Virus record (IMG/VR): IMGVR_UViG_3300034759_000204
From: an uncultured virus (IMG/VR IMGVR_UViG_3300034759_000204)
Lineage: Duplodnaviria; Heunggongvirae; Uroviricota; Caudoviricetes
Direction: 5' to 3' (one strand)
Length of the DNA stretch: 20,000 nucleotides
Of the stretch, positions 1-19,902 are shown one piece after another. Positions within the stretch are counted from its first letter, which is position 1. Each line of letters begins with the position of its first letter. The notes below the pieces were generated by a model. The model was not told where the DNA came from, did no database searches, and worked only from the letters and a program-made list of their open reading frames with translations. Both the position numbers and the translations under genes were made by a program.

Positions 1-2
1 TA

Positions 3-2129
3 AAAAATTTAGTATCTGCTAATTTTGGCAGTTTTACTTGCCATTATGACGCAAGTACAATCTTAAATGACGAAGTTATAGAACAAATATATAACAAAAT
101 AGAAAACTATCTCCCAAACTAGGCTTGTTATATACAAGATTATTACAGACCTTGTGGTTGTGATAATGAATGTGACATACATACTTGTAGATGTGATGGT
201 AGATGTCATGGATATTCTAGCTGTGATTGTAATAGCAGACAGTATAACTTTACTTGTGACTGTTACCAAGTAGCTTATGGTGGTACATGCACATGTTATG
301 AATGGAGCTACGAAACATGTGAATGTTATTGGTAGCACTATGGCTATTGTGTGACAGATGGTTGTTATTGTAATGGGACATGTTATGAAGATAATATTTG
401 TTTTCCATATTATACATGTGTGTGTGATAACGTAGCTCATATAATCCCATGTTCATGTGACAACTAGTGCCATGGTTTTTCTGCATGTGATTGTGACTTT
501 ACATGTGATGGATATGATGCTTGTTCTTGCCATAATTCCTGTCATGGTTATTCGGCATGCAGTTGTGATGGCCCATGCGATATATATGGCTGTGGTTGCT
601 ATAATACCTGTCATGGCCATTCTACATGTAGTTGTAACAGCAGATGTTATGGTGGATATTCTACTTGTAGCTGTAATAATACTTGTGATGGCTATTCTAG
701 CTGCAGTTGTAATAACACTTGTTATGGTGGATATTCTGATTGTTATTGCAATTATGCAAAGTATGGATATGTTGGGTGTTCATGCAATAATACTTGCTAT
801 GGTGGATATTCTACTTGTAGTTGTAATAATACTTGTGACGGTTATTCTAGTTGTACATGTAATAACAGATGTTATTTATATTCATGTCCATGTGATGGAG
901 CCTGTAATTAGTATAGTAGTTGTTCCTGTAATGACAGATGTTATGAATATTAGTATAATTATTGTCAATGCTATAATACTTGTTATGGATTTAGTTCGTG
1001 TAGTTGCAATAATTCAAGTTATTCTAGCTGTTATTGTGATGATAGTTGTTATGGATATTCTTCCTGCGATTGCAATAGTACATGTTATGGATATGATGCT
1101 TGTTCTTGCCATAATACCTGCTATCCTTTTACCCCATGCGGTTGTGATAATTCATGTTACGGATTTGATGCTTGTTCTTGCCATAATACCTGTGATGGCT
1201 ATTCGGCATGTAGTTGTAACAACAAATGTGATGGATATGACGCTTGTTCTTGTCATAATGTCTGTTATGGTTATTCTATATGTAGCTGTAACAACACATG
1301 TGATGGATATAGTTGCGACTGTGATAACACATGCGATGGTTATTCTTCATGTAGTTGTAATAATACTTGCTATGGTGGATATTCTACTTGCAGTTGTAAT
1401 AACACTTGTGATGGTTTTATTGCATGTAGTTGCAATAGCATATGTGATGGATACGGTTCTTGTGTCCCTTATGGAGAAGTATGTTAGTGTAATGCACAAG
1501 AAGATGGTACTTGTACCTGTGAAAGTGCATACAGATATGCAACATGTACATGTTATTATGTCAAATATAACTATAATGAATTTTGTGAAACTTCATGTTA
1601 TTCATTTAATGTTTGTAGTTGTAATAATGCATGCTATGGAGAAACATGCTCATGTAATAATATTTGTCATGGATATGAAGCTTGCGATTGTTATGATAGA
1701 TGTTATGAATATGATTGTTCTTGTAACTACTAGACATATGGGTTTCAATGTTAGAATTGCTATTCTTCTAATTATAGTTGTTCTAGTTTTGAATATAATT
1801 GTTAGTGTGATATTACATGTGATAGTTATGATTATTGTCCAACACATAATACATGTTCTGCATTTAGCACATGTGACTGTTTTGCTACTTGTTATGATGA
1901 TACTTCAATTAATACATGTACTACATTTACACCATGCAATTGCGATATTTCATTGTATGATGGGTGTACAAAATACGGAATATGTTCGGCCAATGAAGGG
2001 GGCGTTTGCACAAGTCATGTTGAACCATAGGCATGTGATGGATATACATAGCCACAGCCTACTGAGGACACATCAGTTACATGTACATCAGATGGTACAA
2101 TTGATTGTACAAGTTATGTGCCACAGTAA
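3..2129 (+). CDS. 5'-truncated giant Cys-rich repeat protein (>700 aa, C-x-C-x-x-x-C-x-G-Y-x-x repeats); candidate radical SAM substrate
   Basis: Frame 3 has no TAA/TGA from the window edge to TAA at 2127-2129 and contains 11 in-frame TAG. It reads ...CSCNNTCYGGYSTCSCNNTCDGYSS... for dozens of 12-13 aa units and lies directly upstream of an rSAM/SPASM gene. Confidence 0.9.
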
Positions 2130-2237
2130 ACTATCATTTTGCTAAAGACTCAATGGTTTCCTTAAATGAATTTTAAATAAAACTGTTAAAACAAATTATA
2201 ATTTAAGTAGAAAATTATATAAAGGAGTTAATTTTTA

Positions 2238-3821
2238 ATGGATGATAAAAATCTTAAAACAGGTAAAAAAGGTAAAAGTTTAAAAGAATTAGGTTTAAAA
2301 ACAAGAAACTTGAGTTTAGATATGACTGAAGGTTGTAGTTTAAGATGTAAATATTGTTTTGCCGATTTTGCTGCTGAAAAAAGAGAAAATAGAAAGCTAA
2401 CAGAAGATGTTATGAAAGCTGCCATTGATTGGTTATTTGATGATGGGACATCTGGGACTACAGAAGAAGTTAACAAGGAAGGCGGATTAGGGTTCGAACC
2501 ATGGGGCGGTGAGCCATGGCACAATTTTCAAATGTTACAAAAAGCATATGAATATTTTGAAAAGAAATCTAAAGAAACTGGTAAAAAAATAGGGCATATA
2601 GGTGGAACAACAAATGCTGTAGAATTTACTGAAGAAAGATTAAAATGGTGTAAAGACCACAACATTACTTGGCTAATATCGTTAGACGGCATAAAAGAAA
2701 ATCACGATAAACAAAGAGTATATGCTGATGGTAGTGGAAGTTTTGATGTTGTTGATAAAAATGTTGATTTATACAAAAAAGTATATGGGTTTGCCCCGCA
2801 GTTAAGAATGTCTTTACATCCAGATTATATTGATAATATTTATAAAAGTTATGAGTATGTGTTAGGTAAAGGTGTAAAATCTTATTTCTTTTCCCCAGTC
2901 TTTGAAGCTAACTGGACTGAAGAAAGTTTTAAAGAATTAGAAGATCAAATAGTTAGGTTATATGAAAAATTAATATTAGATTATAAAAGTGGTTTCCCTA
3001 AAGTAGATAATAAATTTATAGACGATATGATTTATTATATATTAGGTGCACAAAGAAAAGGTATAAATTTAGATGAGATTGAAAAGACAGGATCATATGA
3101 TGTAAATTTAAATGGCCTATCAAAAGGTATGCATTTACCAAAACCATGTGGTGCTGGAACCTCATATTTTGGAGTTACTGTAGAAGGACAAATTTTTGTA
3201 TGCCATAGATTTAATAAACATGGATTGGATCCTAAAAAAATTGGCTTTGATAAAAGATATGGTTGGTTAGGTAATGTGTGGGAAGGTATACATAATGTAG
3301 ATTTAGTAAATGAACTTAAAAATTGGGATGTAAAAGATTTAGAACATTGTAAATATTGTAAGTTAAAGTATTACTGTAAAGGAAGTTGTTATGCTTCAAA
3401 TTACGATAATACTGGTAATATTAAAGGATATCATAAAAATGCTTGTAAAATTAATTTTGCTTTATATAACGCTGCTTTAAGAATAATTGATTTATTCAAA
3501 AAGAATAATATGTTTGATTATGAAAAAAATGATATTATTTTCCCACAACAAAATTTTGGTAATTCATTTCAAGGTAGAAATGGACAAAGTATTAATTCCT
3601 GTATGTGTAATAACGCAACTTATTATTTCAATGGATTAGAACAATTATTATCTGATGAAAAGCCTGAAAATGTAGAAGATCTTAAAATGCAAATACTAGA
3701 TGGCGGAATTAATGTGCTACTTGATATGTACCAAGAAGTTAAAATGAATAAGGGTAATAATAGACAGTTCAATAACCCTAAAAGTAATAACATAAAAAAG
3801 AAATTTAATTTCAAATTGTAA
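2238..3821 (+). CDS. Radical SAM/SPASM domain protein (peptide-maturase/anSME-like), 527 aa
   Basis: SD AAGGAG at ~2222. Motifs: CSLRCKYC (CxxxCxxC), WGGEP, TTN, ISLDG, SPASM PCGAG...G.IFVCHRF and CKYC-x5-CKGSC...C. No internal TAG. Confidence 0.95.
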   Translation: MDDKNLKTGKKGKSLKELGLKTRNLSLDMTEGCSLRCKYCFADFAAEKRENRKLTEDVMKAAIDWLFDDGTSGTTEEVNKEGGLGFEPWGGEPWHNFQMLQKAYEYFEKKSKETGKKIGHIGGTTNAVEFTEERLKWCKDHNITWLISLDGIKENHDKQRVYADGSGSFDVVDKNVDLYKKVYGFAPQLRMSLHPDYIDNIYKSYEYVLGKGVKSYFFSPVFEANWTEESFKELEDQIVRLYEKLILDYKSGFPKVDNKFIDDMIYYILGAQRKGINLDEIEKTGSYDVNLNGLSKGMHLPKPCGAGTSYFGVTVEGQIFVCHRFNKHGLDPKKIGFDKRYGWLGNVWEGIHNVDLVNELKNWDVKDLEHCKYCKLKYYCKGSCYASNYDNTGNIKGYHKNACKINFALYNAALRIIDLFKKNNMFDYEKNDIIFPQQNFGNSFQGRNGQSINSCMCNNATYYFNGLEQLLSDEKPENVEDLKMQILDGGINVLLDMYQEVKMNKGNNRQFNNPKSNNIKKKFNFKL

Positions 3822-3840
3822 AAAAGGAGGGAATTTAAAG

Positions 3841-4101
3841 ATGGCTTTATCAGCAGAATTAATTATTAATGATACAGATTATTCTGATAAAATAACAGAT
3901 ATAAATTTTATTGATAAGAGAACACAAACTGACTACCTGATCACTATGGAAAAATACTATATAACAGATCCATTACCTTCTAATTAGTCTATAACTCTTA
4001 AATTCAATGATATATTAATAATTGAAAACAGTACAAATATAGACTTTGAAATTAATACTAGAAATCTAGGAACGACTATAAGAATTAAAGTTGAAAAATG
4101 A
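3841..4101 (+). CDS. Small hypothetical protein (86 aa, one TAG read-through)
   Basis: SD AGGAGG upstream, ATG 3841, in-frame TAG 3985-3987, TGA 4099-4101. Starts MALSAELIINDTDYSDKITDI. Confidence 0.8.
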
Positions 4102-4142
4102 GGCAGGGCGATTGTCCTGCTTCATTATTATTATTTTTTTTT
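4099..4142 (+). terminator. Probable intrinsic terminator
   Basis: TGAGGCAGGGC-GATT-GTCCTGCTTCA hairpin followed by a T-rich tract. Confidence 0.65.
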
Positions 4143-4172
4143 AGTTAATTGTTACTGAGGTGATATAAAATC

Positions 4173-7100
4173 ATGCCTAGCTTAATTAATGAATATAATG
4201 CTATTTATACATTATATGATAATATATTCCCATTTTAGGGTTAGAAAAATTAGCAATTAATAGAGCCATAGACTACTAATTTAATAGGTAATGGAAATTT
4301 ATAGTTAGATTCTAATGCTGATAATATTTCTGATTTTTTTAATGCTTCTACTCTAACTTTTGTTAATATTAATGATATTTTTTCAAAAACATATAATGTA
4401 TTAAATTATTAGACACAAAAAGGTTTTTATATAAATATAACAAATAAAACTACTCAAACAACTTAGTATTCATAGCTTAAAATATATTCTAATAATATAA
4501 ATATTCAATAGAGTACTACTTATAACCTATCTTTACAAGGTAAATTAGATAATTCTGTTTTAATTGTGTTTTAGGAAATATATGATAGTACTAACACATT
4601 AATACAAAATCAACAACTTAATTTATCTGAAGTTCTTATAATGAGTGATAATACTAAAATATATTCAGGTTCTGTTATTTAGCCTTAGAATTCTTCATAT
4701 ATAAAATTTTCTTTTGAAATAAGAATACCACAAAAAAGTCAAGGGTCTTAGCTATTAAACAATGTACAATTAGAAAACAGAAATTATTGGACTTCATTTT
4801 AGAATCCAACAAATCCTTAGAATCTTATTATAACTGATATTGGTGAACATTTTTCCTTAACTAACACTGGTTATTTTTATATTCCTACATCTAAAAAACA
4901 AAATTATGAATAGAATTTAATTTCTATAGGAAAACCTTTTGAATAGAATAGTATAACTTTATATTTTGAAAATTCATATTAGACCCTTGCTGTTAAAATC
5001 ACTGATAATACTGGATAGATTGTTTTTGAACATCATAATATTAGTTATGATTAGCTATGGAATTATTTTTAGTTAGCTTACAGACAAAATGGTGTTGGTA
5101 TAGATTTAAAACTTTTTATCAACAACACAAAAGTATTTGAACAAAATATATAGGAAATAAATTTAGATTATAACAACACATAGTTTAAAAAAGTATATAT
5201 AGGCCATAGTTATTCTGAGAGTCAATAGATAAATCAACTAAATGGTTTTGTTTCTGTTATAAAAGGTGTTGGAAGTTATATATTAGATGACGAAATACTT
5301 AATATTTATAATAATAAAAAAATATATTCTTCAACAAGATCTTTAGTACGTAGTGCTGATATAAATGCAACATTACTTGGTGGGTTATCTCCAAGCGAAT
5401 TTGCAACGTCAACACATAGCCACGACGATAGATATAGAAATAAAGTAGAATCAGATAATACATATGTTTTTAAACATGGTGACACATTAACTGGTACATT
5501 AACCGCCCCTACACTTCAAATAAACGATGGGAATACCAAAATACTAGAGGGTGGTACAAATAGTGTAAGAATACAAACTAATTCTGGGTATGTTGATATT
5601 GGCCCTCAGAATACTTCCTTGTCACATTTTAATACCGACAGACCAAAATTCTATTTTGGCAAACCTGTTCAGATTAATGGTAATATAGAAAGTGATGGCG
5701 GTACTAGAACGATAACAGGGTTTAATCTATCTGGTAATGCATCTACATAGTCTAAACTAGAAACCGCTAGAACTATTAGCTTAACAGGTGATGTTACTGG
5801 TTCAACGACTTTCGATGGATCGTAGAATGTTTCTATAACCGCTACCGTTGCTAATGATTCACATACACACGATACTAGATATTATACTGAATCAGAAGCA
5901 GATAGTAGGTTCGTAAATGCCTCTGGTGATACTATTACTGGTACATTAGCATACAATGATGTTTCAAGATATTGGTTATCTACTGCTACCAACTATGGAA
6001 TTTATTGGGAAACTACTAACCACGAACTTGAATTTCATGGAGCTGGGGTAGATAAATTTCATGTTGATTTAGATGACGGGAACACTTGGATTGGCGGTAC
6101 TTTAAGCGTTTCTGGTGCAATAACTGGTTCACTTTCTGGTAATGCGTCTACATAGTCTAAGTTGCAAACAGCTAGAACTATTAGTTTAGCAGGTGATGTT
6201 ACTGGCTCAACGACTTTCGATGGATCGTAGAACGTTTCTATATCTGCTACTGTTGCAAACGATTCACATAGCCATAGCAATGCTACTATCACATCTGTCG
6301 ATTGGAGTAAACTTACTAATGTACCTGATCCAACAATTACTTTAAGCGGTGATATAACTGGTTAGTAGACTATGACAAATCTCGGGAGTATAACTATAAC
6401 TGCTACCGTTGCTAATGATTCACATACACACGATACTAGATATTATACTGAATCAGAAGCAGATAGTAGGTTCGTAAATGCCTCTGGCGATACTATTACT
6501 GGTACATTAACATACAATGATGTTTCAAGATATTGGTTATCTGCTGCTACCAACTATGGAATTTATTGGGATACTACTAACCACGAACTTGAATTTCATG
6601 GGGCAGGGGTAGATAAATTTCATGTTGATTTAGATAACGGGAACACTTGGATTGGCGGTACTTTAAGTGTTTCTGGTGCAATAACTGGTTCACTTTCTGG
6701 TAATGCGTCTACATAGTCTAAGTTGCAAACAGCTAGAACTATTAGCTTAGCAGGTGATGTTACTGGCTCAACGACTTTCGATGGATCGTAGAACGTTTCT
6801 ATATCTGCTACTGTTGCAAACGATTCACATAGCCATAGCAATGCTACTATCACATCTGTCGATTGGAGTAAACTTACTAATGTACCTGATCCAACAATTA
6901 CTTTAAGCGGTGATGTAACTGGCTAGTAGACTATGACAAACCTCGGAAGTATAACTATAACTGCTACCGTCGTTGACGACTCACATACACACGATACTAG
7001 ATATTATACTGAATCAGAAGCAGACAGCAGATTCGTTAATGTAGCAGGCGATACTGTTACAGGATAGCTTACTTTTAGTGGCAACACCTCTTTCAATAAT

Positions 7101-7697
7101 GTGATGAATATAAATTCAGAAATGAGAATTGAAAATTAGAATCCTTCTGTATATATATGGAATAATTAGGGTGGGGCTTAGAATTTATATTTTGGAGAAA
7201 ATACTAGTTCTGGATATGGATTACATTTATATTGGGATTCCTCATATACCACATACTTAAAATCAAGGCATTAGGGTGTTGATACTAATGTATTTCATAT
7301 TGATACAAGAAATTAGGATTTTGTATTAGACCAACCTTTAATTTCTACATATGGTGAAAATGGTGGGTTATATATAGGGACTAATGGAAGTAAGCCACAA
7401 ATAACAACAGTTAACGGGGAACAAATGGTTCTTAGATCAAATGAAATAAGATTTGCTGATAATATCTAGTGGGGATATGATTCATTTAGTGGGATTAAAT
7501 ATGATTCAGTTAACAAAAAGATGTACATTGGTGGGTCAAACAGTTCTCATTTTACTTCTAGTACTAATCCTCAAGATATAGATGTAGAATTTGATGGTGT
7601 AAATGATGTAAAAGTAAATGGTACTTTGACTATTCAAGGTTTTACTATACAATATAATTAGAGTGATGAATCTTTTGATTTCATATATTTAGGGTGA
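4173..7697 (+). CDS. Phage tail fibre / receptor-binding protein (~1174 aa, many TAG codons)
   Basis: SD GAGGTG, ATG 4173, no TAA/TGA until TGA 7695-7697. Fibre repeats GNAST*SKLQTARTISLAGDVTGSTTFDGS*NVSI, HxH motifs (DSHTHDTRYYTESE), GDTxTGxL and C-terminal IQYN*SDESFDFIYLG. Confidence 0.88.
5835..6956 (+). repeat. Near-identical 561-bp in-frame tandem duplication (5835-6395, 6396-6956; partial third copy to ~7065)
   Basis: The same sequence recurs at a 561-nt offset, mirrored by the duplicate antisense ORFs 6059-6292 and 6620-6853. Confidence 0.93.
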
Positions 7698-10603: not shown

Positions 10604-12121
10604 ATGGCTGATTTATCTAATGGGACAACAATAGGTGGATTTAGATAGTTACATGAGAATTTATAGAAACCAACATTATTTGACGATTTAACAGTTCCTA
10701 CACTTCAAATAAACGATGTTAATACCAAAATATTAGAAGGCACGTCCAATAGTATAAGAATACAAACTAATTCTGGGTATGTTGATATTGGCCCTCAGAA
10801 TACTTCCTTGTCACATTTTAATACCGACAGACCAAAATTCTATTTTAACCAACCTATTCAGATTAATGGGAATATAGAAAGTGATGGCGGTACTAGAACG
10901 ATAACAGGTTTTAATCTATCTGGTAATGCTTCTACATAGTCTAAGCTACAAACCGCTAGAACTATTAGCTTAGCAGGTGATGTTACTGGCTCAACGACTT
11001 TCGATGGATCGTAGAACGTTTCTATATCTGCTACAGTCGTTGATGACTCACATAGTCATAGCAATGCTACTATCACATCTGTCGATTGGAGTAAACTTAC
11101 TAATCTGCCTGATCCAACGATTACTTTAAGCGGTGATGTAACTGGTTAGTAGACTATGACAAACCTCGGAAGTATAACTATAACTTCTACCGTCGGCGAT
11201 GATTCACATAGTCATAGTAATTCCACAATTACATCTGTTGATTGGAGTAAACTTACCAATGTACCTGATCCAACAATTACTTTAAGTGGTGATGTAACTG
11301 GTTAGTAGACTATGACAAACCTCGGAAGTATAACTATATCTGCTACTGTTGCTAATGACTCACATACACACGATACTAGATATTATACAGAATCAGAAGC
11401 AGATAGTAGATTCGTTAATGTTACTGGAGATACTATGACTGGTAATCTTACAATATTAAAAAACAAACCATGGTTAACTTTAGATAGTTCTAGTTCTGGT
11501 GATAATTTAAACGAACAATAGGCTGGCATAAGTATAGGTGAAGCTGGAACTGGAGGTTAGTCATTACATTTAGTATATACTGGTGATGGCTATTAGTATA
11601 TAGGAATGGGTTCTACATCCCCTATTCCTTAGTATAAAGCTATGCGATTTCATTATACTAATAATAATGTACTTTTCTATGGCACTATAACAGCAACAAA
11701 AGTCTATGGTGCAGTCTACAACGACTATGCTGAATATAGAAGTTCTGATGAGCCTATAGATTTTGGTTATGTATAGATAGAAGATGAAAAAGGTAATGTA
11801 ATTAAATGTAATGAAGATAGAAGTAAAAAAGTATAGGGAGTGAGTACTGATACTTTAGGATTTTAGATTGGAAAACAAAAAGATACTGATACTCCTATTG
11901 CTGTTGCTGGTAGAGTTTTAGTTTATTAGATTGATAAACATAAACTTAGAATTGGTGATTAGGTGTGTTCTACTAAAGAAGGGAAAGTTAGAAAAATGAA
12001 ATGGTGGGAAAAGATATTTTTTCCAGAATAGATTGTTGGTTATGTTAGTGAATTTCCTGATTATGATATATGGGGTAGTGATAATATTAAAGTTAATGGT
12101 AGGATTTGGATTAGAATTTAA
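10604..12121 (+). CDS. Tail fibre protein (~505 aa) with a C-terminal intramolecular-chaperone/peptidase-G2-like domain
   Basis: SD GAGGG. N-terminus MADLSNGTTIGG recalls T4 gp36-like starts. Shares fibre repeats with 4173-7697. C-terminus VYGAVYNDYAEYR...DTLGF*IG...PIAVAGRVLV...GD*VCS...VNGRIWIRI, then TAA 12119-12121. Confidence 0.87.
11048..11360 (+). repeat. 156-bp (52 aa) tandem repeats SHSHSN.TITSVDWSKLTN.PDPTITLSGDVTG**TMTNLGSITI
   Basis: TCACAT unit starts at 11048, 11204 and 11360. The same module occurs inside the 561-bp repeat. Confidence 0.85.
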
Positions 12122-12205
12122 AAAAAATCTAATAACAGATAATAAAGAAAATTTCTGTGTTAATTATTTATTGAAAATATTTTATAACATAAAAAGGTGA
12201 TTATA

Positions 12206-13342
12206 TTGTTTGTACAACCATATATTAATTATAGAGATGGTGAAGGATTAAGATTAATTATAGGTTATAGTAAATGTGACCTTAATTGTAAAAATTGCCA
12301 TTTAACCAAAGATGAAAATGTTAGTTTTGAATATATTTTAAATCTTCTTGATAATATAAAAACAACAGGCTATTTGTAGAAAATGCCATTGTAGTTTTCA
12401 GAACAATTATCTTAGATGACTTATGATAAAACTGTTGGTTACAATAAATATGGATTTGTAAATAATGAAATAGAAGAAAATAAACTAGGGATCCCTATAA
12501 TTGGCATAACAATTGGAGGCGGTAATGCTTTATCAGACACAAATATAAATTACACAGAAAAGATTTTACAACATAAAAATGTTGACAATTAGATTATTTA
12601 TTTAGGATATACAAAGGAATATATAAAACAAAAACATTTAAATTTTTTAAATAAACATAAGAATAAAATAAAATATATAAAAATTGGCCCTTATATAGAT
12701 GAGCAAAAAAATTATGGAATATATTATGGTTCTTTAAATCAAAAAATATATGATATAGAATTAAACAATATTGAAGAACTATTACCATATAAAAATGTAT
12801 TAAAAATTGATAATTCTAAGAGAGAAGAAATTAAAAAATTTTTTGATAACAATAAATTTTATGATGACCTAATAGAATTAAATACGTTCTAGGGAGAATA
12901 CATTGGTTATAATTTCTAGTTACCTAATGAATTGTCAAATTCTGTTATTTTGTCTGAGACAAAAAAATATGTACTAGGAATAAATAATATTTTTGGTTTA
13001 TGGTTAATAAATAATTTAGAAACACCATTTTTAACTTTTGAAATAGGTAATTATACAAAAAGTCAGATATATGGTATGTATATTTAGATGCAAAAATATA
13101 ATAATGATTTTTAGATAGAAACATTTTTTAAACATATAAAAGATAAATAGGTAATAAAAAATGGATAGAAAATTCAAGTAGATACTATTTTTGATAATAA
13201 TTTAAGATTTAAAAGAAATTATAATGATTTATATCTATTAAAAAAACTGTTTATGAATAGTTTTTATGAAACAAATTATAATAACTACTTTTTGCAAAAT
13301 GAAAAAACTTCAAATATATTTTTTGAATCATTTTTGAGGTGA
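12206..13342 (+). CDS. NrdG-like radical SAM protein (anaerobic RNR activase fold) with a long C-terminal extension, ~378 aa
   Basis: SD AGGTGA then TTG 12206 (alternative GTG 12197). Motifs DGEGLR, CDLNCKNCH, GITIGGGN, IYLGY and YIKIGPYI...GSLNQKIYD match the NrdG layout. Open through TAG to TGA 13340-13342. Confidence 0.78.
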
Positions 13343-13347
13343 TATAA

Positions 13348-14040
13348 ATGGCAATTGCATTAGAATAGATAACAACATCATATTCTATAACTGGAGGAGA
13401 ATTAATTAGAGCAGAAATAAGGACATAGTTGAATAAAGCAAAAAACAATGCAGCTGATTATGGTTACCCTATCAGTGGTTTTGTAGATTCTGATATAATA
13501 TATGGGAATAGCCAATTTAGATTAATTTAGAATTCATATTAGACTATATCTTCTACTATGGGTTTTGGGAATGCTCCACCTTCCAGCTCATATTTTGATA
13601 CAAATGATACTATAGATGATGCATATGTGTCACCCTTAGTTTCTTCTATAAAGTATTATTCAACTTGCCGTTGTAATTATAACAACTATTATAAATATCA
13701 ATATTGTGTAGAAAAAGGGACATGCACATGTAATACTCGTTAGACTCGAAGTTGTTCATGTAATGTAAATTTTTTTTGTACTTGCCAAACTGTATATGCT
13801 ACAGATATTAGAGATTATAATTATTGTAGTGTTTGTAGTAGCAATTACGTTTCTTGTTCATGTAATAAATACTTTGGCTGTGTGGAACGTAGAACTTTGG
13901 ACGAAATACAAGGGTGTTAGTGTAATTCAGATAAAGATACAAAAACAAATTTATGTAGTACAAATTTACGGAACAGTAGTTGTTTAAATGGATGTACTTG
14001 TAATGCTGATGGGTGTAGATGTAACTCACAACTAGTTTAA
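13348..14040 (+). CDS. Second Cys-rich protein (230 aa): Cys-free N-terminal half and CxCN-rich C-terminal half; candidate rSAM substrate
   Basis: SD GAGGTG, ATG 13348, TAA 14038-14040. Contains CRCN, CTCN, CSCN, CTCQ, CSCN, C*CN, CTCN and CRCN motifs. Confidence 0.85.
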
Positions 14041-14054
14041 TAAAGGAGATTATT

Positions 14055-14564
14055 ATGTTTGAAGATTATATAAATTTATTGTTCAACAAAAAAATTGAAT
14101 ATAAAGATTTATTAATACCTGAAGAATTTATAGATAAATAGCAATTATTGTTTGATGAAATAATTAATTATTAGTTATATAATGATTTTGATGTTGAATA
14201 CAAAAAAAATCATCAGATTTAGAACATGAAACTAAAAGACGACATAATAGAATATATTTCACCTTTAGGTATTACAGTACAACTAGAAAAAAAGTTTGAT
14301 ACTTTAAAAAAAAATTAGGAATATTATAATTCAATTAGAGACGAAATGTAGAAAATAAAATGTACAAACTGTCAGTTACAATAGTATTGTCCATATGATA
14401 TACCTACTATAGATCAATGTGGATTTACTATAAAGTTTTAGGCATTATTATATAGAAATTTATTAGTTATATATGAAAATAAATACGTTAATAACAAAAA
14501 AGAACATATAAAACAAATAGATATTTGTAAAGATTTTAAGGCTGGTGTTATAAATGAGTTATAA
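14055..14564 (+). CDS. Hypothetical protein with a SPASM-like C-x2-C-x5-C motif (169 aa)
   Basis: SD AAGGAG, ATG 14055, TAA 14562-14564. Motif KCTNCQLQ*YCPY...QC. Overlaps the start of the next gene. Confidence 0.75.
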
Positions 14565-15786
14565 AGATTTCTTAAAAGATATATCAACAATCACTTTAAT
14601 TATGACTACTGATTGCAATTTGAGATGCAAATATTGTTTTACGCAAAACTATGGTTATAAACCAGAATATGTAGATTAGAAAGTATTTATAGATTTTATA
14701 AACGAATTATAGGAAATCAAAAATGGAGGTAGTATAGAAAATACGTTTTTTGGTGGTGAACCATTTTTACATTTAGATTAGATGAATGAAATTTAGGAAT
14801 ATTATTAGAAAAAAAATTTTGTTCATTCTAACACAAGAATATTATTTAGTGCTGTTACGAATGGCACTATTATAAATGATAAAATCGTAGACTTTATAAA
14901 TAAATATTTATATAACATACAATTTAGTATAGATGGTTCTATTAAAACTCAAGATAAATATAGAGTTACATAGAATGATAGAGGTTCTTATTATTTAATA
15001 CTAAATTAGATAAGTAAAAATTTAAAAAACATAAATACAAATATGTCTATTAAACAAACGTACTAGCCATATGGTTAGTTGAATATATTAGAAAATTATA
15101 AAGACTAGTATTAGAATTTCTTCCATCCTTTAAAGGATATAACTTTTACATCTATGATTATAAGAAGTGTCGATGTATTTGAACAAGAAGAACAAATATA
15201 GTACATAGACGAATATGCCAAAACATATGATTGGTGGTATGAAAATTTTGTTAAAAAAGGATTTTATAAAGAATAGACATTTTTTGGAGAATTTACTAGA
15301 AATGTGCAGGATATAAATGGTACTTTGAACAATTTCTTTACAACAGAAAATAAAACCCCATGTGGTTAGGGAAAATCACTTTTCGGCATTGATCAAAATG
15401 GTAATTTGTATCCATGCCATCATTTCTAGTATAGCGAACCTGGATATACTGACTTTAAACTTTTAACATACAAACAAAACGGTGATTTATCAAAAATAGA
15501 TTTAGAAAAATTGCAATAGTTTAATTCATATAATCTAACAAAAGGTCCCTGTAATCATTGTTAGGCTTCTTAGAATTGCTATTATTGTCTAGCTGAAAAC
15601 TATCAATACAGGAAAAATTTGAATATGCCTGATAAAAAACTATGTTTAGTTGGTAGAAGTGAAAACTCTATTCAACAAACTTATTATAAAAAAATTTTAT
15701 AGACAAATAATGATTTTATAGATTATATTAATTCATTTGAATATACAATACCTCAAAATAACATTGTTAATTATAGTATGATCTGA
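14554..15786 (+). CDS. Second radical SAM/SPASM protein (410 aa, 19 in-frame TAG)
   Basis: Motifs CNLRCKYC, FFGGEP, VTNGT, FSIDG, PCG*G...NGNLYPCHHF and CNHC-x5-CYYC. TGA 15784-15786. Confidence 0.92.
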
Positions 15787-18127: not shown

Positions 18128-18442
18128 ATGAATGAAATTTTATTTTGGGTATTAGGTTTTGGAATTATTTTGTTGGTTGGATGGTTATTGTCAAAAGATA
18201 AGGTTAAAGATGTTCTTGATACAGTAAAAGAAGTTGCTGAAATAGTTGTTGGTGAAACTGAACAATTGTCTAATTTTAATGAAATGACTAGCGAACAGAA
18301 AAAGGAATATTAGATGAGTAGAGCTAAGATTATTTTAGAAAAATTAGGAAAATCTAACGCAATTTCAGATGAAATGCTTTCAAGTGCTATTGAATAGGCT
18401 GTGTTATAGATGAACCTTTTTCGTCCAAAAGAAAAAGATTGA
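18128..18442 (+). CDS. Phage holin, LL-H-like family (104 aa)
   Basis: SD AGGAGG and an N-terminal TM helix. VGETEQ...EQKKEY*...LEKLG...SAIE*AVL*MN matches the LL-H holin pattern. TGA 18440-18442. Confidence 0.82.
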
Positions 18443-19171: not shown

Positions 19172-19735
19172 TTGCCAAAATCAGTTAATTTAAAAAGTTT
19201 AAAACCTGGAGATATTTTATTATTTAAAACAGGAAATTAGCTTAATTAGCCATATAATTTTGTTAAAAAAGTTTATGGCTAGACTATGTAGAATTTTCTA
19301 ATTAATAACCTAAAAAATGACTATATACATGCTGAAATTTATTATGGAGATCTTTATGGGCTTGGAGCTACTTAGAGTGGTAGTAGATTTGGGAAATATA
19401 GTTTAGAGTTGCTTTCTAACTTAACTATTATGAGACTGAAAGATAAAGAAATAGATCAAGAATTAATGAGAGAATAGATAAATCAATTTCATAATTTAGA
19501 ATATGACTTTGATTCTTTAATTAGAAATAGTATATCTGAAATACTTAACATAGTTAAATTAGAAAAAGTTTTAGAAAATTTGTATGAAATTGAAACACCA
19601 AACTAGCTGATTTGTTCTGAACTTGTCTAGCGTGTGTATACTGAATATGGAGAACCATTGTTTGAAAGAGAAGATTGGGTTTCACCACAGGATTTATTTG
19701 AAAATCCCAAACTAGAAATTATATATACTGTTTAA
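19172..19735 (+). CDS. Permuted papain-like amidase (YiiX/YaeF, peptidase C92-like), 187 aa
   Basis: SD AAGGAG, TTG 19172. Motifs LKPGDILLF, HAEIYYG, YDF, ICSELV*RVY and VSPQDL. TAA 19733-19735. Confidence 0.85.
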
Positions 19736-19825: not shown

Positions 19826-19902
19826 GGGGGCGTAGCTTAATAGGCGAGAGCAGTGGTCCCTAAAACCATTGGGTGTGGGTTCGAATCCCATCGCCTCCAC
19901 CA
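19826..19902 (+). tRNA. Amber-decoding tRNA, anticodon CUA, with alanine identity elements (tRNA-Ala(CUA))
   Basis: Cloverleaf: acceptor GGGGGCG/CGCCTCC (G3:U70), D-stem GCTT/GAGC, anticodon stem GTGGT/ACCAT with loop CC-CTA-AA (CTA 19860-19862), T-arm GTGGG-TTCGAAT-CCCAT, discriminator A and encoded CCA. Confidence 0.95.

What the first reader, a model, noticed from the sequence alone, without database searches (positions are those of the whole stretch)
3..3821. Giant CxCxxxC-repeat protein paired with a radical SAM/SPASM enzyme in a phage
Seen: a protein over 700 aa, about one quarter Cys across its repeat core, with dozens of C-S-C-N-N-T-C-(Y/D/H)-G-Y units, directly upstream of an rSAM/SPASM gene. 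It is invisible to standard gene calling. Established: SPASM rSAM enzymes install thioether or C-C crosslinks in Cys-rich peptides (sactipeptides, ranthipeptides), which are usually far shorter. Inference: an iteratively modified, RiPP-like protein. Its position next to tail-fibre genes, with no transporter or protease in view, suggests a crosslinked or metal-loaded virion component rather than a secreted bacteriocin.
Basis: partly seen in the sequence, partly recalled or inferred. Interest (0 to 1): 0.82.

Follow-up and report, generated by a model that had tools for sequence, protein, structure and literature searches.

The report
Phage cysteine-ladder protein with radical-SAM maturase
A large uncultured phage encodes a long cysteine-repeat protein next to its tail-fibre genes and a dedicated iron-sulfur enzyme that probably staples it with peptide-antibiotic-type cross-links, and the phage appears to read the stop codon TAG as alanine (a related lineage seems to do so for TAA too).

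Summary
Confirmed, with corrections. Bases 3-2129 encode 708 aa (145 Cys; 34 CxCxxxC units, shuffled mean 6.8), open only if TAG is read through. The start lies outside the window; homologues suggest about 875 aa. A radical SAM/SPASM gene follows 108 nt later: CteB/PapB-like, seven SPASM cysteines, no RRE, below every family cut-off. The pair is tightly linked: 35 of 35 informative metagenome loci found by the enzyme have the repeat gene upstream, and 5 of 5 standard-code phage records found by the repeat alone carry the enzyme. In several of those the ladder sits inside fibre-like proteins. The enzyme's own tail holds a substrate-like CxC motif. Best reading (about 0.45 overall): iterative Cys-to-Asn/Asp thioether stapling of a tail appendage; no modification is shown. 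Closest known: archaeal CrpA/CrpC. TAG here looks like Ala, not Gln: a tRNA-CUA with G3:U70, and TAG at conserved Ala columns. A sister lineage uses TAA and TAG for Ala, almost without GCN codons. This scan noted phage radical-SAM/Cys-fibre cassettes and TAG=Ala before on other DNA; my look-up found no TAA=Ala note.

The parts
3..2129 (+). 3' part (708 aa of about 875) of the Cys-ladder protein: end of a helical segment, about 34 C-x-C-[N/D]-x-x-C-[Y/D/H]-G units, degenerate Cys-rich C-terminus; 11 in-frame TAG, read as Ala
   Evidence: no Pfam, NCBIfam or PHROG family
2238..3821 (+). Radical SAM/SPASM maturase, 527 aa: CxxxCxxC at C33/C37/C40; seven SPASM Cys (304, 322, 371, 374, 380, 384, 403); no N-terminal RRE; C-terminal tail with substrate-like CxC (C455/C457, invariant in 21 of 21 aligned); no TAG codon
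3841..4101 (+). 86-aa ORF of no known family, directly after the enzyme in the window's sub-clade (L001-L004, L006-L010); role unknown
4097..4126 (+). Intrinsic-terminator-like hairpin (13 bp) closing the ladder-enzyme-small ORF unit
   Evidence: 3 sites found in 1-4300, 1.2 expected by chance
4173..7697 (+). Long tail fibre protein, 42 in-frame TAG (context)
   Evidence: phrog_11011 E 1.6e-84
10604..12121 (+). Second tail fibre protein, 18 in-frame TAG (context)
   Evidence: phrog_11011 E 2.2e-33
13348..14040 (+). Second candidate substrate, 230 aa: helical N-part, then 8 CxC motifs, 7 of them CxCN, none CxCxxxC
14055..14564 (+). 169-aa ORF with a four-Cys C-terminal cluster between the second substrate and the second enzyme; no family
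14554..15786 (+). Second radical SAM/SPASM enzyme, 410 aa, 19 in-frame TAG, 25% identical to the first
19826..19902 (+). Amber-suppressor tRNA (anticodon CUA) with a G3:U70 pair and A73, the alanine identity; ARAGORN labels it Pyl from the anticodon alone

Best explanation
A phage protein-maturation system. The ladder gene makes a large late protein: a jelly-roll domain, a short helical segment, then dozens of C-x-C-[N/D]-x-x-C units. The neighbouring radical SAM/SPASM enzyme binds SAM on its core cluster, holds a substrate Cys thiol on an open-site auxiliary cluster, takes an H atom from the beta-carbon of a nearby Asn/Asp and closes a thioether, unit after unit. The product is a stapled, redox-stable appendage of the tail fibre apparatus; unlinked Cys may bind metal. 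SHOWN: the repeats, the enzyme's fold and cysteine set, gene linkage in both search directions, fusion of the same ladder to fibre-like domains in other phages. INFERRED: that the enzyme acts on the ladder (about 0.85), that the bond is a thioether (about 0.75 given that), that the product is in the virion (about 0.7). The register is open: Cys1 to position 4 (as in CrpA), Cys1 to position 5 (PapB CX3D) or position 4 to Cys7 (NxxC). The full-length protein needs the phage's own tRNA-CUA, which most likely inserts Ala at TAG (about 0.9).
For: Linkage: 35 of 35 metagenome loci with at least 250 nt upstream of the enzyme have 3 or more CxC motifs there; 8 of 43 loci were too short, and many loci are near-copies in about five sub-clades. 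Reverse search by the repeat motif alone gave 6 viral loci; 5 of 6 hold the enzyme family within 8 kb (L045 and L049 look like one phage), and 5 of 5 whole records searched hold it. Background: 30 of 50,697 annotated phage records match the enzyme at all. Cultured Campylobacter phage CP220 has a protein with 19 CxC (18 CxC[ND]) 2.2 kb before a distant homologue. Enzyme: best family PapB (200 bits), best fold CteB 5WGG (E 3.6e-20), SPASM Cys aligned to CteB. The enzyme tail carries CxC motifs like the substrate's in the window and in L044-L047. Acceptor: N/D follows 375 of 487 CxC in 27 ladder proteins against a background of 10-29%; 33 of 34 window units have N/D at position 4 or 5. Virion link: homologue P0072 residues 19-109 match a tail-protein PHROG (E 4.7e-10), P0089 an adsorption protein; in L047 the ladder protein has a C1q domain; window, L007, L013 and L039 place the pair beside fibre genes. 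Precedent: CrpC cross-links a Cys-repeat protein (PMC13692751).
Against: No biochemical or proteomic data. The enzyme is below every maturase cut-off (PapB 200 of 340), and SPASM enzymes also make C-C bonds or formylglycine; anSME ranks next in the fold search. There is no RRE, so substrate recognition is unexplained. C380 is not invariant (Asp in P0009). In L048 the enzyme lies about 22 kb from the repeat gene, and Phass-1 has a distant homologue with no CxC protein within 5 kb. The fold matches of the N-terminal domain are weak and generic (CBM35-like, E about 3e-5). In L003, L022 and L040 the genes following the enzyme are not fibre genes. The 11 CP220 virion bands listed in PMC2853527 include no protein I could match to its CxCN protein.
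Confidence: 0.45

Rival explanations
1. The enzyme does cross-link the ladder, but the product stays out of the virion: an intracellular or released metal-binding protein, as suggested for CrpA.
For: 145 Cys leave many thiols free even after one link per unit. PMC13692751 suggests metal binding for CrpA. Some ladders are short stand-alone ORFs (L048).
Against: Ladders recur inside fibre-, C1q- and adsorption-type proteins and beside fibre genes. The gene carries TAG codons like the structural genes.
Confidence: 0.18
2. The enzyme modifies a virion ladder by other radical chemistry: Tyr/His C-C or C-O links in the C-[Y/H]-G-Y part, or Cys to formylglycine as anSME does.
For: Tyr sits at position 8 in 57% and position 10 in 36% of 487 units. 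anSME is the second fold match.
Against: Cyclophane maturases score far lower (YhhB 39, FxsB 35 bits) than PapB (200). The second substrate keeps CxCN in 7 of 8 motifs but lacks the C-Y-G-Y part.
Confidence: 0.15
3. The ladder is unmodified and folds through metal-thiolate or disulfide bonds; the enzyme has another substrate and only travels in the same late operon.
For: No modification is shown. L048 has the genes 22 kb apart. Large phages can hold many radical SAM genes (11 in CP220, PMC2853527).
Against: Adjacency in 35 of 35 loci, presence in 5 of 5 unrelated records, two separate ladder-enzyme pairs in this window, and the substrate-like motif in the enzyme tail.
Confidence: 0.14
4. A precursor of secreted RiPP bacteriocins, cut into many small cross-linked cores.
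For: Tandem similar cores and a RiPP-type maturase. A weak papain-like ORF lies 15 kb away.
Against: No transporter among 16 ORFs scanned. No spacer between units. Ladders sit between folded domains in other phages.
Confidence: 0.04
5. Artefact: the Cys frame is broken by real stops, and the coding gene is the 562-aa shadow frame at 457-2145.
For: Table 11 lists the shadow ORF and not the Cys frame.
Against: Third-position excess in the Cys frame. Standard-code phages encode the same ladder without stops. TAG fills nearly all long genes and a suppressor tRNA is present. Related contigs from three studies cover both genes.
Confidence: 0.02

Closest known systems
CrpA/CrpC of Methanococcus voltae (TIGR04463; PMC13692751, abstract and sections 8, 12, 14 read)
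   Same: Large Cys-repeat protein beside a radical SAM/SPASM enzyme with seven SPASM Cys; iterative thioether links on a protein; Cys three residues before a polar acceptor.
   Different: Archaeal chromosome; 17-residue repeat; CrpC has an RRE. Here a phage tail region, a 12-residue CxCxxxC unit, no RRE, 58 bits against a cut-off of 525. No mention of phage in the paper's text or three supplements.
PapB/PapA and CteB/SCIFF ranthipeptide maturases (PMC10177961, passages read)
   Same: Best HMM (PapB 200 bits), best fold and only PDB sequence hit (CteB); same SPASM cysteine set; Cys with Asp/Asn four residues on in many units.
   Different: Below cut-offs (340, 425). CteB's first 96 residues have no counterpart. 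The substrate is about 875 aa with over 30 units, not a short leader-core peptide.
NxxcB/NxxcA (PMC9389541, passages read)
   Same: Radical SAM beta-thioether between Cys and Asn; 26 of 34 window units contain [N/D]xxC.
   Different: Streptococcal short peptide. The window's second substrate has CxCN without the later Cys, so the NxxC register is not general. No sequence comparison with NxxcB was run.
CXXX-repeat system (TIGR04115 maturase) and CcpM/Clo7bot Cys-rich peptides
   Same: Cys-periodic targets next to a SPASM enzyme.
   Different: 88 of 350 and 126 of 500 bits; the ladder matches no NCBIfam model.
TAG-recoded 'code 15' phages (Borges et al., 10.1101/2021.08.26.457843, passages read)
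   Same: Low-GC phage, in-frame TAG in structural and lysis genes, own tRNA-CUA.
   Different: That survey reports only TAG to Gln and TGA to Trp against standard-code hosts. Here the evidence points to Ala. One phage tRNA-CUA of 29 tested inserted Ala in cell-free assays (PMC12636597); UAG=Ala as a code is established for Hydrodictyaceae mitochondria (PMC6821328).

Membership tests
Radical SAM/SPASM superfamily | CxxxCxxC core motif and Radical_SAM model above cut-off | tested here: met
   C33/C37/C40; PF04055 36.2 of 29.5 bits
Radical SAM/SPASM superfamily | Seven-Cys SPASM domain | tested here: met
   TIGR04085 43.2 of 27 bits; C304, 322, 371, 374, 380, 384, 403 align with CteB
PapB family ranthipeptide maturase (NF047865) | Score at or above 340 bits | tested here: not met
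   200 bits; standard-code homologues 198-233
PapB/CteB-type maturases | N-terminal RRE domain | tested here: not met
   Core starts at residue 23 against residue 97 in CteB; the model shows no such domain. That CteB's N-part is an RRE is recalled.
Ranthipeptide system | Enzyme-made Cys-S to non-alpha-carbon thioether | not testable with these tools
   Needs mass spectrometry
Ranthipeptide system | Short leader-core precursor with protease and exporter | tested here: not met
   Substrate over 700 aa; no transporter among 16 ORFs; DNA upstream of base 1 unseen
CrpC family (TIGR04463) | Score at or above 525 bits | tested here: not met
   58.4 bits
CrpC family (TIGR04463) | Large Cys-repeat protein encoded next to the enzyme | tested here: met
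   35 of 35 informative loci
CXXX-repeat system (TIGR04115) | Maturase at or above 350 bits and a target matching its models | tested here: not met
   88.3 bits; ladder has 0 NCBIfam hits
Phage tail-fibre accessory protein | Homology to virion tail proteins | tested here: inconclusive
   Homologue P0072 hits a tail PHROG (E 4.7e-10); window part has no hit; fold matches weak
Phage tail-fibre accessory protein | Presence in purified virions | not testable with these tools
   Needs proteomics
Code-15 phages (TAG=Gln) | TAG at conserved Gln positions; Gln-type suppressor tRNA | tested here: not met
   In conserved enzyme columns TAG faced Ala 51 of 57 times and Gln never; CAA/CAG control faced Gln 29 of 38; tRNA has G3:U70 and A73
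TAG=Ala code | tRNA-CUA with G3:U70 | tested here: met
   Window, L003 and L004; G3:U70 as the main AlaRS element from PMC5389517
TAG=Ala code | Ala found at TAG in the protein product | not testable with these tools
   Needs proteomics or a reporter assay

The most novel reading that the evidence does not exclude
Many unrelated phages build part of their host-binding apparatus with RiPP chemistry: a portable C-x-C-[N/D] ladder, inserted into fibre and spike proteins, is stapled dozens of times by a phage-specific, RRE-less radical SAM enzyme that carries a copy of the motif in its own tail. The clade in this window also shows a stepwise code change: TAG becomes Ala through a G3:U70 suppressor, and a nested lineage moves Ala almost wholly to TAA and TAG, drops GCN codons and the GpC step, and keeps TGA as its only stop.
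Probability: 0.4. Interest if true: 0.93.

Novelty: new variant of a known kind. Interest (0 to 1): 0.8.

Why it matters
Enzyme-made thioether links on large proteins have few proven cases (PMC13692751 names QHNDH and a few others), and my searches found none for a virus particle. If right, phages harden or tune tail appendages with a chemistry that needs no disulfides, which would suit anaerobic habitats, and the enzyme would be a processive, leader-independent cross-linker. A cultured phage, CP220, carries a related pair, so the idea can be tested now. Separately, databases translate this clade's TAG as Gln (P0006, P0009-P0015 show Q at Ala columns), and a phage lineage reading TAA as Ala would be a code I found no report of.

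Tried and rejected
TAG=Gln, my first reading, was rejected. The shadow ORF 457-2145 was rejected. Viral-contig scans with the enzyme, the L022 capsid and the L009 terminase found no relative, so no whole genome of this clade could be read; no own genome is held and L020 lies in no held record. Host, release factors and a tRNA-UUA are therefore unknown; ARAGORN found a tRNA in only 2 of 37 loci scanned, none in the TAA group. The genome contigs motif scan gave 1 hit (L050) with no repeat ORF, a chance match. One search is weak on its own: TAG sites gave Ala as majority at 15 of 58 and Gln at 0, but the CAA/CAG control gave Gln at only 1 of 28. The Ala/Gln budget (5.8/2.4% or the reverse) does not decide. 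Promoter-like sites are at chance level (32 against 31.4). The Atlas gave only sub-0.9 hits to unnamed viral clusters for L046 and nothing for the small ORF homologue. Two human-gut 'phage' hits have SCIFF-like peptides beside the enzyme, a different system. RNA-run contigs cover parts of both genes but cannot show transcription. The wide structural search was busy and not run. No complex prediction was sent. The tree is the quick version only. PMC12801897 was not relevant.
Full report
OBSERVATION. The window is a low-GC phage late region: long tail fibres at 4173-7697 and 10604-12121 and a holin at 18128. Almost every long gene is open only if TAG is read through. Frame +3 from base 3 to 2129 gives 708 aa with 145 Cys, 34 CxCxxxC units and a dominant 12-residue period, far above shuffles (mean 6.8, max 15 of 2000). 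The gene has no ATG in the window and aligns from about residue 165-175 of full-length homologues, so the protein is about 875 aa; a related contig runs 1012 nt upstream of base 1. Table 11 shows a 562-aa shadow frame instead; substitutions against L001 fall mostly on third positions of the Cys frame (65/57/101). Related contigs from three studies cover both genes, with joints inside the ladder that suggest unit number varies between strains.

THE ENZYME. 2238-3821 starts 108 nt after the ladder gene. It has the CxxxCxxC motif and seven SPASM cysteines that align with CteB, its only PDB sequence hit and best fold match (5WGG, E 3.6e-20; model pLDDT 77.5). PapB is the best family at 200 of 340 bits, and all maturase cut-offs are missed. 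It has no N-terminal RRE. PMC10177961 (passages) describes an open site on the first auxiliary cluster of PapB and Tte1186 and Cys-to-Asp links in CX3D; the seven-Cys set here fits that, by inference. After the SPASM domain lies a CxC motif (C455/C457) that is invariant in 21 of 21 aligned homologues and recurs once or twice in the tails of four standard-code homologues. It resembles the substrate unit; self-modification, a pseudo-substrate or a metal site are all possible.

LINKAGE. A protein search gave 20 close homologues (44-90% identity) among 25 hits. Their alignment found 43 metagenome loci. All 35 with at least 250 nt upstream hold a CxC-rich frame there; 8 were too short. These are not independent: they form about five sub-clades. 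The reverse test used only a repeat-motif DNA pattern: 6 viral loci, all read in the standard code, 5 with the enzyme family within 8 kb at E under 1e-57 (L045 and L049 appear to be one phage), and 5 of 5 whole records hold it (about 22 kb away for L048). Only 30 of 50,697 annotated phage records match the enzyme. Of four of these examined, CP220 has a CxCN-rich protein 2.2 kb upstream, two have SCIFF-like peptides, and Phass-1 has no CxC protein within 5 kb. The window holds a second pair: a 230-aa protein with 7 CxCN among 8 CxC motifs and a second, distant SPASM enzyme.

WHERE THE LADDER SITS. A search of cluster representatives gave 46 hits; of 11 read, several carry the ladder at the end of, or inside, long non-Cys proteins. 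P0072 residues 19-109 match a tail-protein PHROG and P0089 an adsorption protein. L047 has a C1q domain at cut-off, L046 and P0071 weaker ones. The missing N-terminal part, modelled from L009 (pLDDT 73, 7 rows), is a beta-sandwich plus three helices with weak CBM35-like and tail-protein matches. The pair adjoins fibre genes in the window, L007, L013 and L039, and lies 6 kb from a terminase in L009. This makes a virion role likely but not shown; I could not match any listed CP220 virion band to its CxCN protein (PMC2853527, passages).

MECHANISM. Across 27 ladder proteins, N or D follows 375 of 487 CxC motifs and Cys stands at position 7 in 345; 33 of 34 window units have N/D at position 4 or 5. 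Three registers have precedent: Cys-x-x-acceptor in CrpA (PMC13692751, sections 8, 12, 14), CX3D in PapA and Asn-x-x-Cys in NxxcA (PMC9389541, passages). The second substrate keeps CxCN without the later Cys, which favours the first Cys as donor. I put enzyme-acts-on-ladder at 0.85, thioether at 0.75 given that, and virion location at 0.7: about 0.45 together. Rivals are a non-virion metal-binding product (0.18), other radical chemistry (0.15), no modification (0.14), a bacteriocin precursor (0.04) and artefact (0.02).

THE CODE. The tRNA at 19826-19902 has anticodon CUA, G3:U70 and A73; a different tRNA-CUA in L003 and L004 has the same pair. PMC5389517 (passages) calls G3:U70 the main AlaRS element and shows such amber tRNAs inserting mainly Ala. 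In the enzyme alignment, TAG codons in columns at least 80% conserved faced Ala 51 of 57 times (6 columns) and Gln never; the CAA/CAG control faced Gln 29 of 38 times. Eight of the ten reference rows were database proteins whose code I could not check; with only the two DNA-checked rows, TAG faced Ala 62 of 95 times and Gln never. In pairs of related genes, TAG's partners were Ala 16, Ser 14, Thr 12, Gln 3 of 101. Against distant standard-code loci the window's TAG sites gave Ala as majority at 15 of 58 and Gln at 0, but the Gln control was poor there (1 of 28). I put TAG=Ala at about 0.9. The first enzyme has 0 TAG among 18 Ala codons against 174 of 302 in 13 other window genes (P 4e-7; L003 likewise), so here it could be made without the suppressor; other sub-clades have 6-16 TAG in it.

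A SISTER LINEAGE. In 21 of 33 loci examined (L018-L036, L038, L041; many near-copies) the enzyme gene holds 19-34 in-frame TAA, 0-5 TAG, no TGA and at most one GCN. TAA faced Ala 64 of 106 times in conserved columns. L022 encodes a T4-like major capsid protein and baseplate hub under this reading, with read-through sites opposite Ala of T4 gp23 at several places, and its GpC observed/expected ratio is 0.02. On the quick enzyme tree this group nests among TAG-only loci. No tRNA-UUA or host was found.

NOVELTY. Nine literature searches, over open-access papers and preprints only, found no account of a radical SAM enzyme modifying a phage structural protein and no phage code with TAA or TAG as Ala. 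The Crp paper does not mention phage in its text or three supplements. Borges et al. (passages) report only Gln and Trp against standard-code hosts. One phage tRNA-CUA of 29 inserted Ala in vitro (PMC12636597, passages and supplement search), and UAG=Ala is known from green-algal mitochondria (PMC6821328, passages). This scan's earlier notes describe similar cassettes and TAG=Ala on other genomes; they gave me the CrpA paper and the GpC lead, and are not counted as support. Look-ups for TAA=Ala and for this enzyme's sequence found no match. Verdict: real, conserved, a new viral variant of radical-SAM protein cross-linking, unproven at the bench; interest 0.8.

Noticed in passing
L018-L036, L038, L041 (e.g. 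L022:245-1858, L022:2540-3934 minus strand): T4-like phage lineage that appears to read both TAA and TAG as Ala, with almost no GCN codons, TGA as sole stop and GpC observed/expected 0.02-0.10. No tRNA-UUA found.
   Followed up: partly
window 19826-19902; L003:3433-3507; L004:3920-3994: Amber-suppressor tRNAs with alanine identity (G3:U70, A73), labelled Pyl by ARAGORN; databases translate this clade's TAG as Gln.
   Followed up: yes
window 13348-15786: Second cassette: 230-aa CxCN protein, 169-aa four-Cys ORF and a second SPASM enzyme on a long branch.
   Followed up: partly
window 2238-3821; L003:892-2448: The first enzyme avoids TAG (0 of 18 Ala codons) while its substrate and neighbours use it; possibly lets the enzyme be made before the suppressor acts.
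   Followed up: partly
window 3600-3611 and tails of enzymes in L044-L047: Substrate-like CxC motif in the enzyme's C-terminal extension, kept across distant phages.
   Followed up: partly
L044:2479-3282, L045:5856-6779, L046:3026-3853, L047:12651-13442, L048:6671-7540: An ORF with an HxGH-like motif (weak cytidylyltransferase or pantoate-ligase hits in four of five) lies beside the enzyme or the ladder in the standard-code phages; L044, L046 and L047 also hold a further SPASM enzyme.
   Followed up: no
L007:803-2584, L009:7649-9933: The ladder gene is split into two tandem ORFs in these loci but is one ORF in the window and in P0072.
   Followed up: no
window 12197-13342: NrdG-like radical SAM protein with a long C-terminal extension, just before the second cassette.
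   Followed up: no
window 19172-19735: Weak permuted papain-like protein (NF008552 E 0.0025; phrog_1128), 8 TAG.
   Followed up: no
L061:2149-3753 (CP220 gp140): Cultured Campylobacter phage protein with 19 CxC motifs 2.2 kb before a radical SAM gene: a ready test system.
   Followed up: partly
L003:3972-5306, L040:8269-9516 minus strand: ORFs that look like IscB/RRXRR mobile nucleases (recalled, not tested) with 2 and 0 TAG, as expected of recent imports.
   Followed up: no
window 5700-7100 and 10900-11450: Long internal duplications within and between the two tail-fibre genes (80% identity over 260 aa).
   Followed up: no
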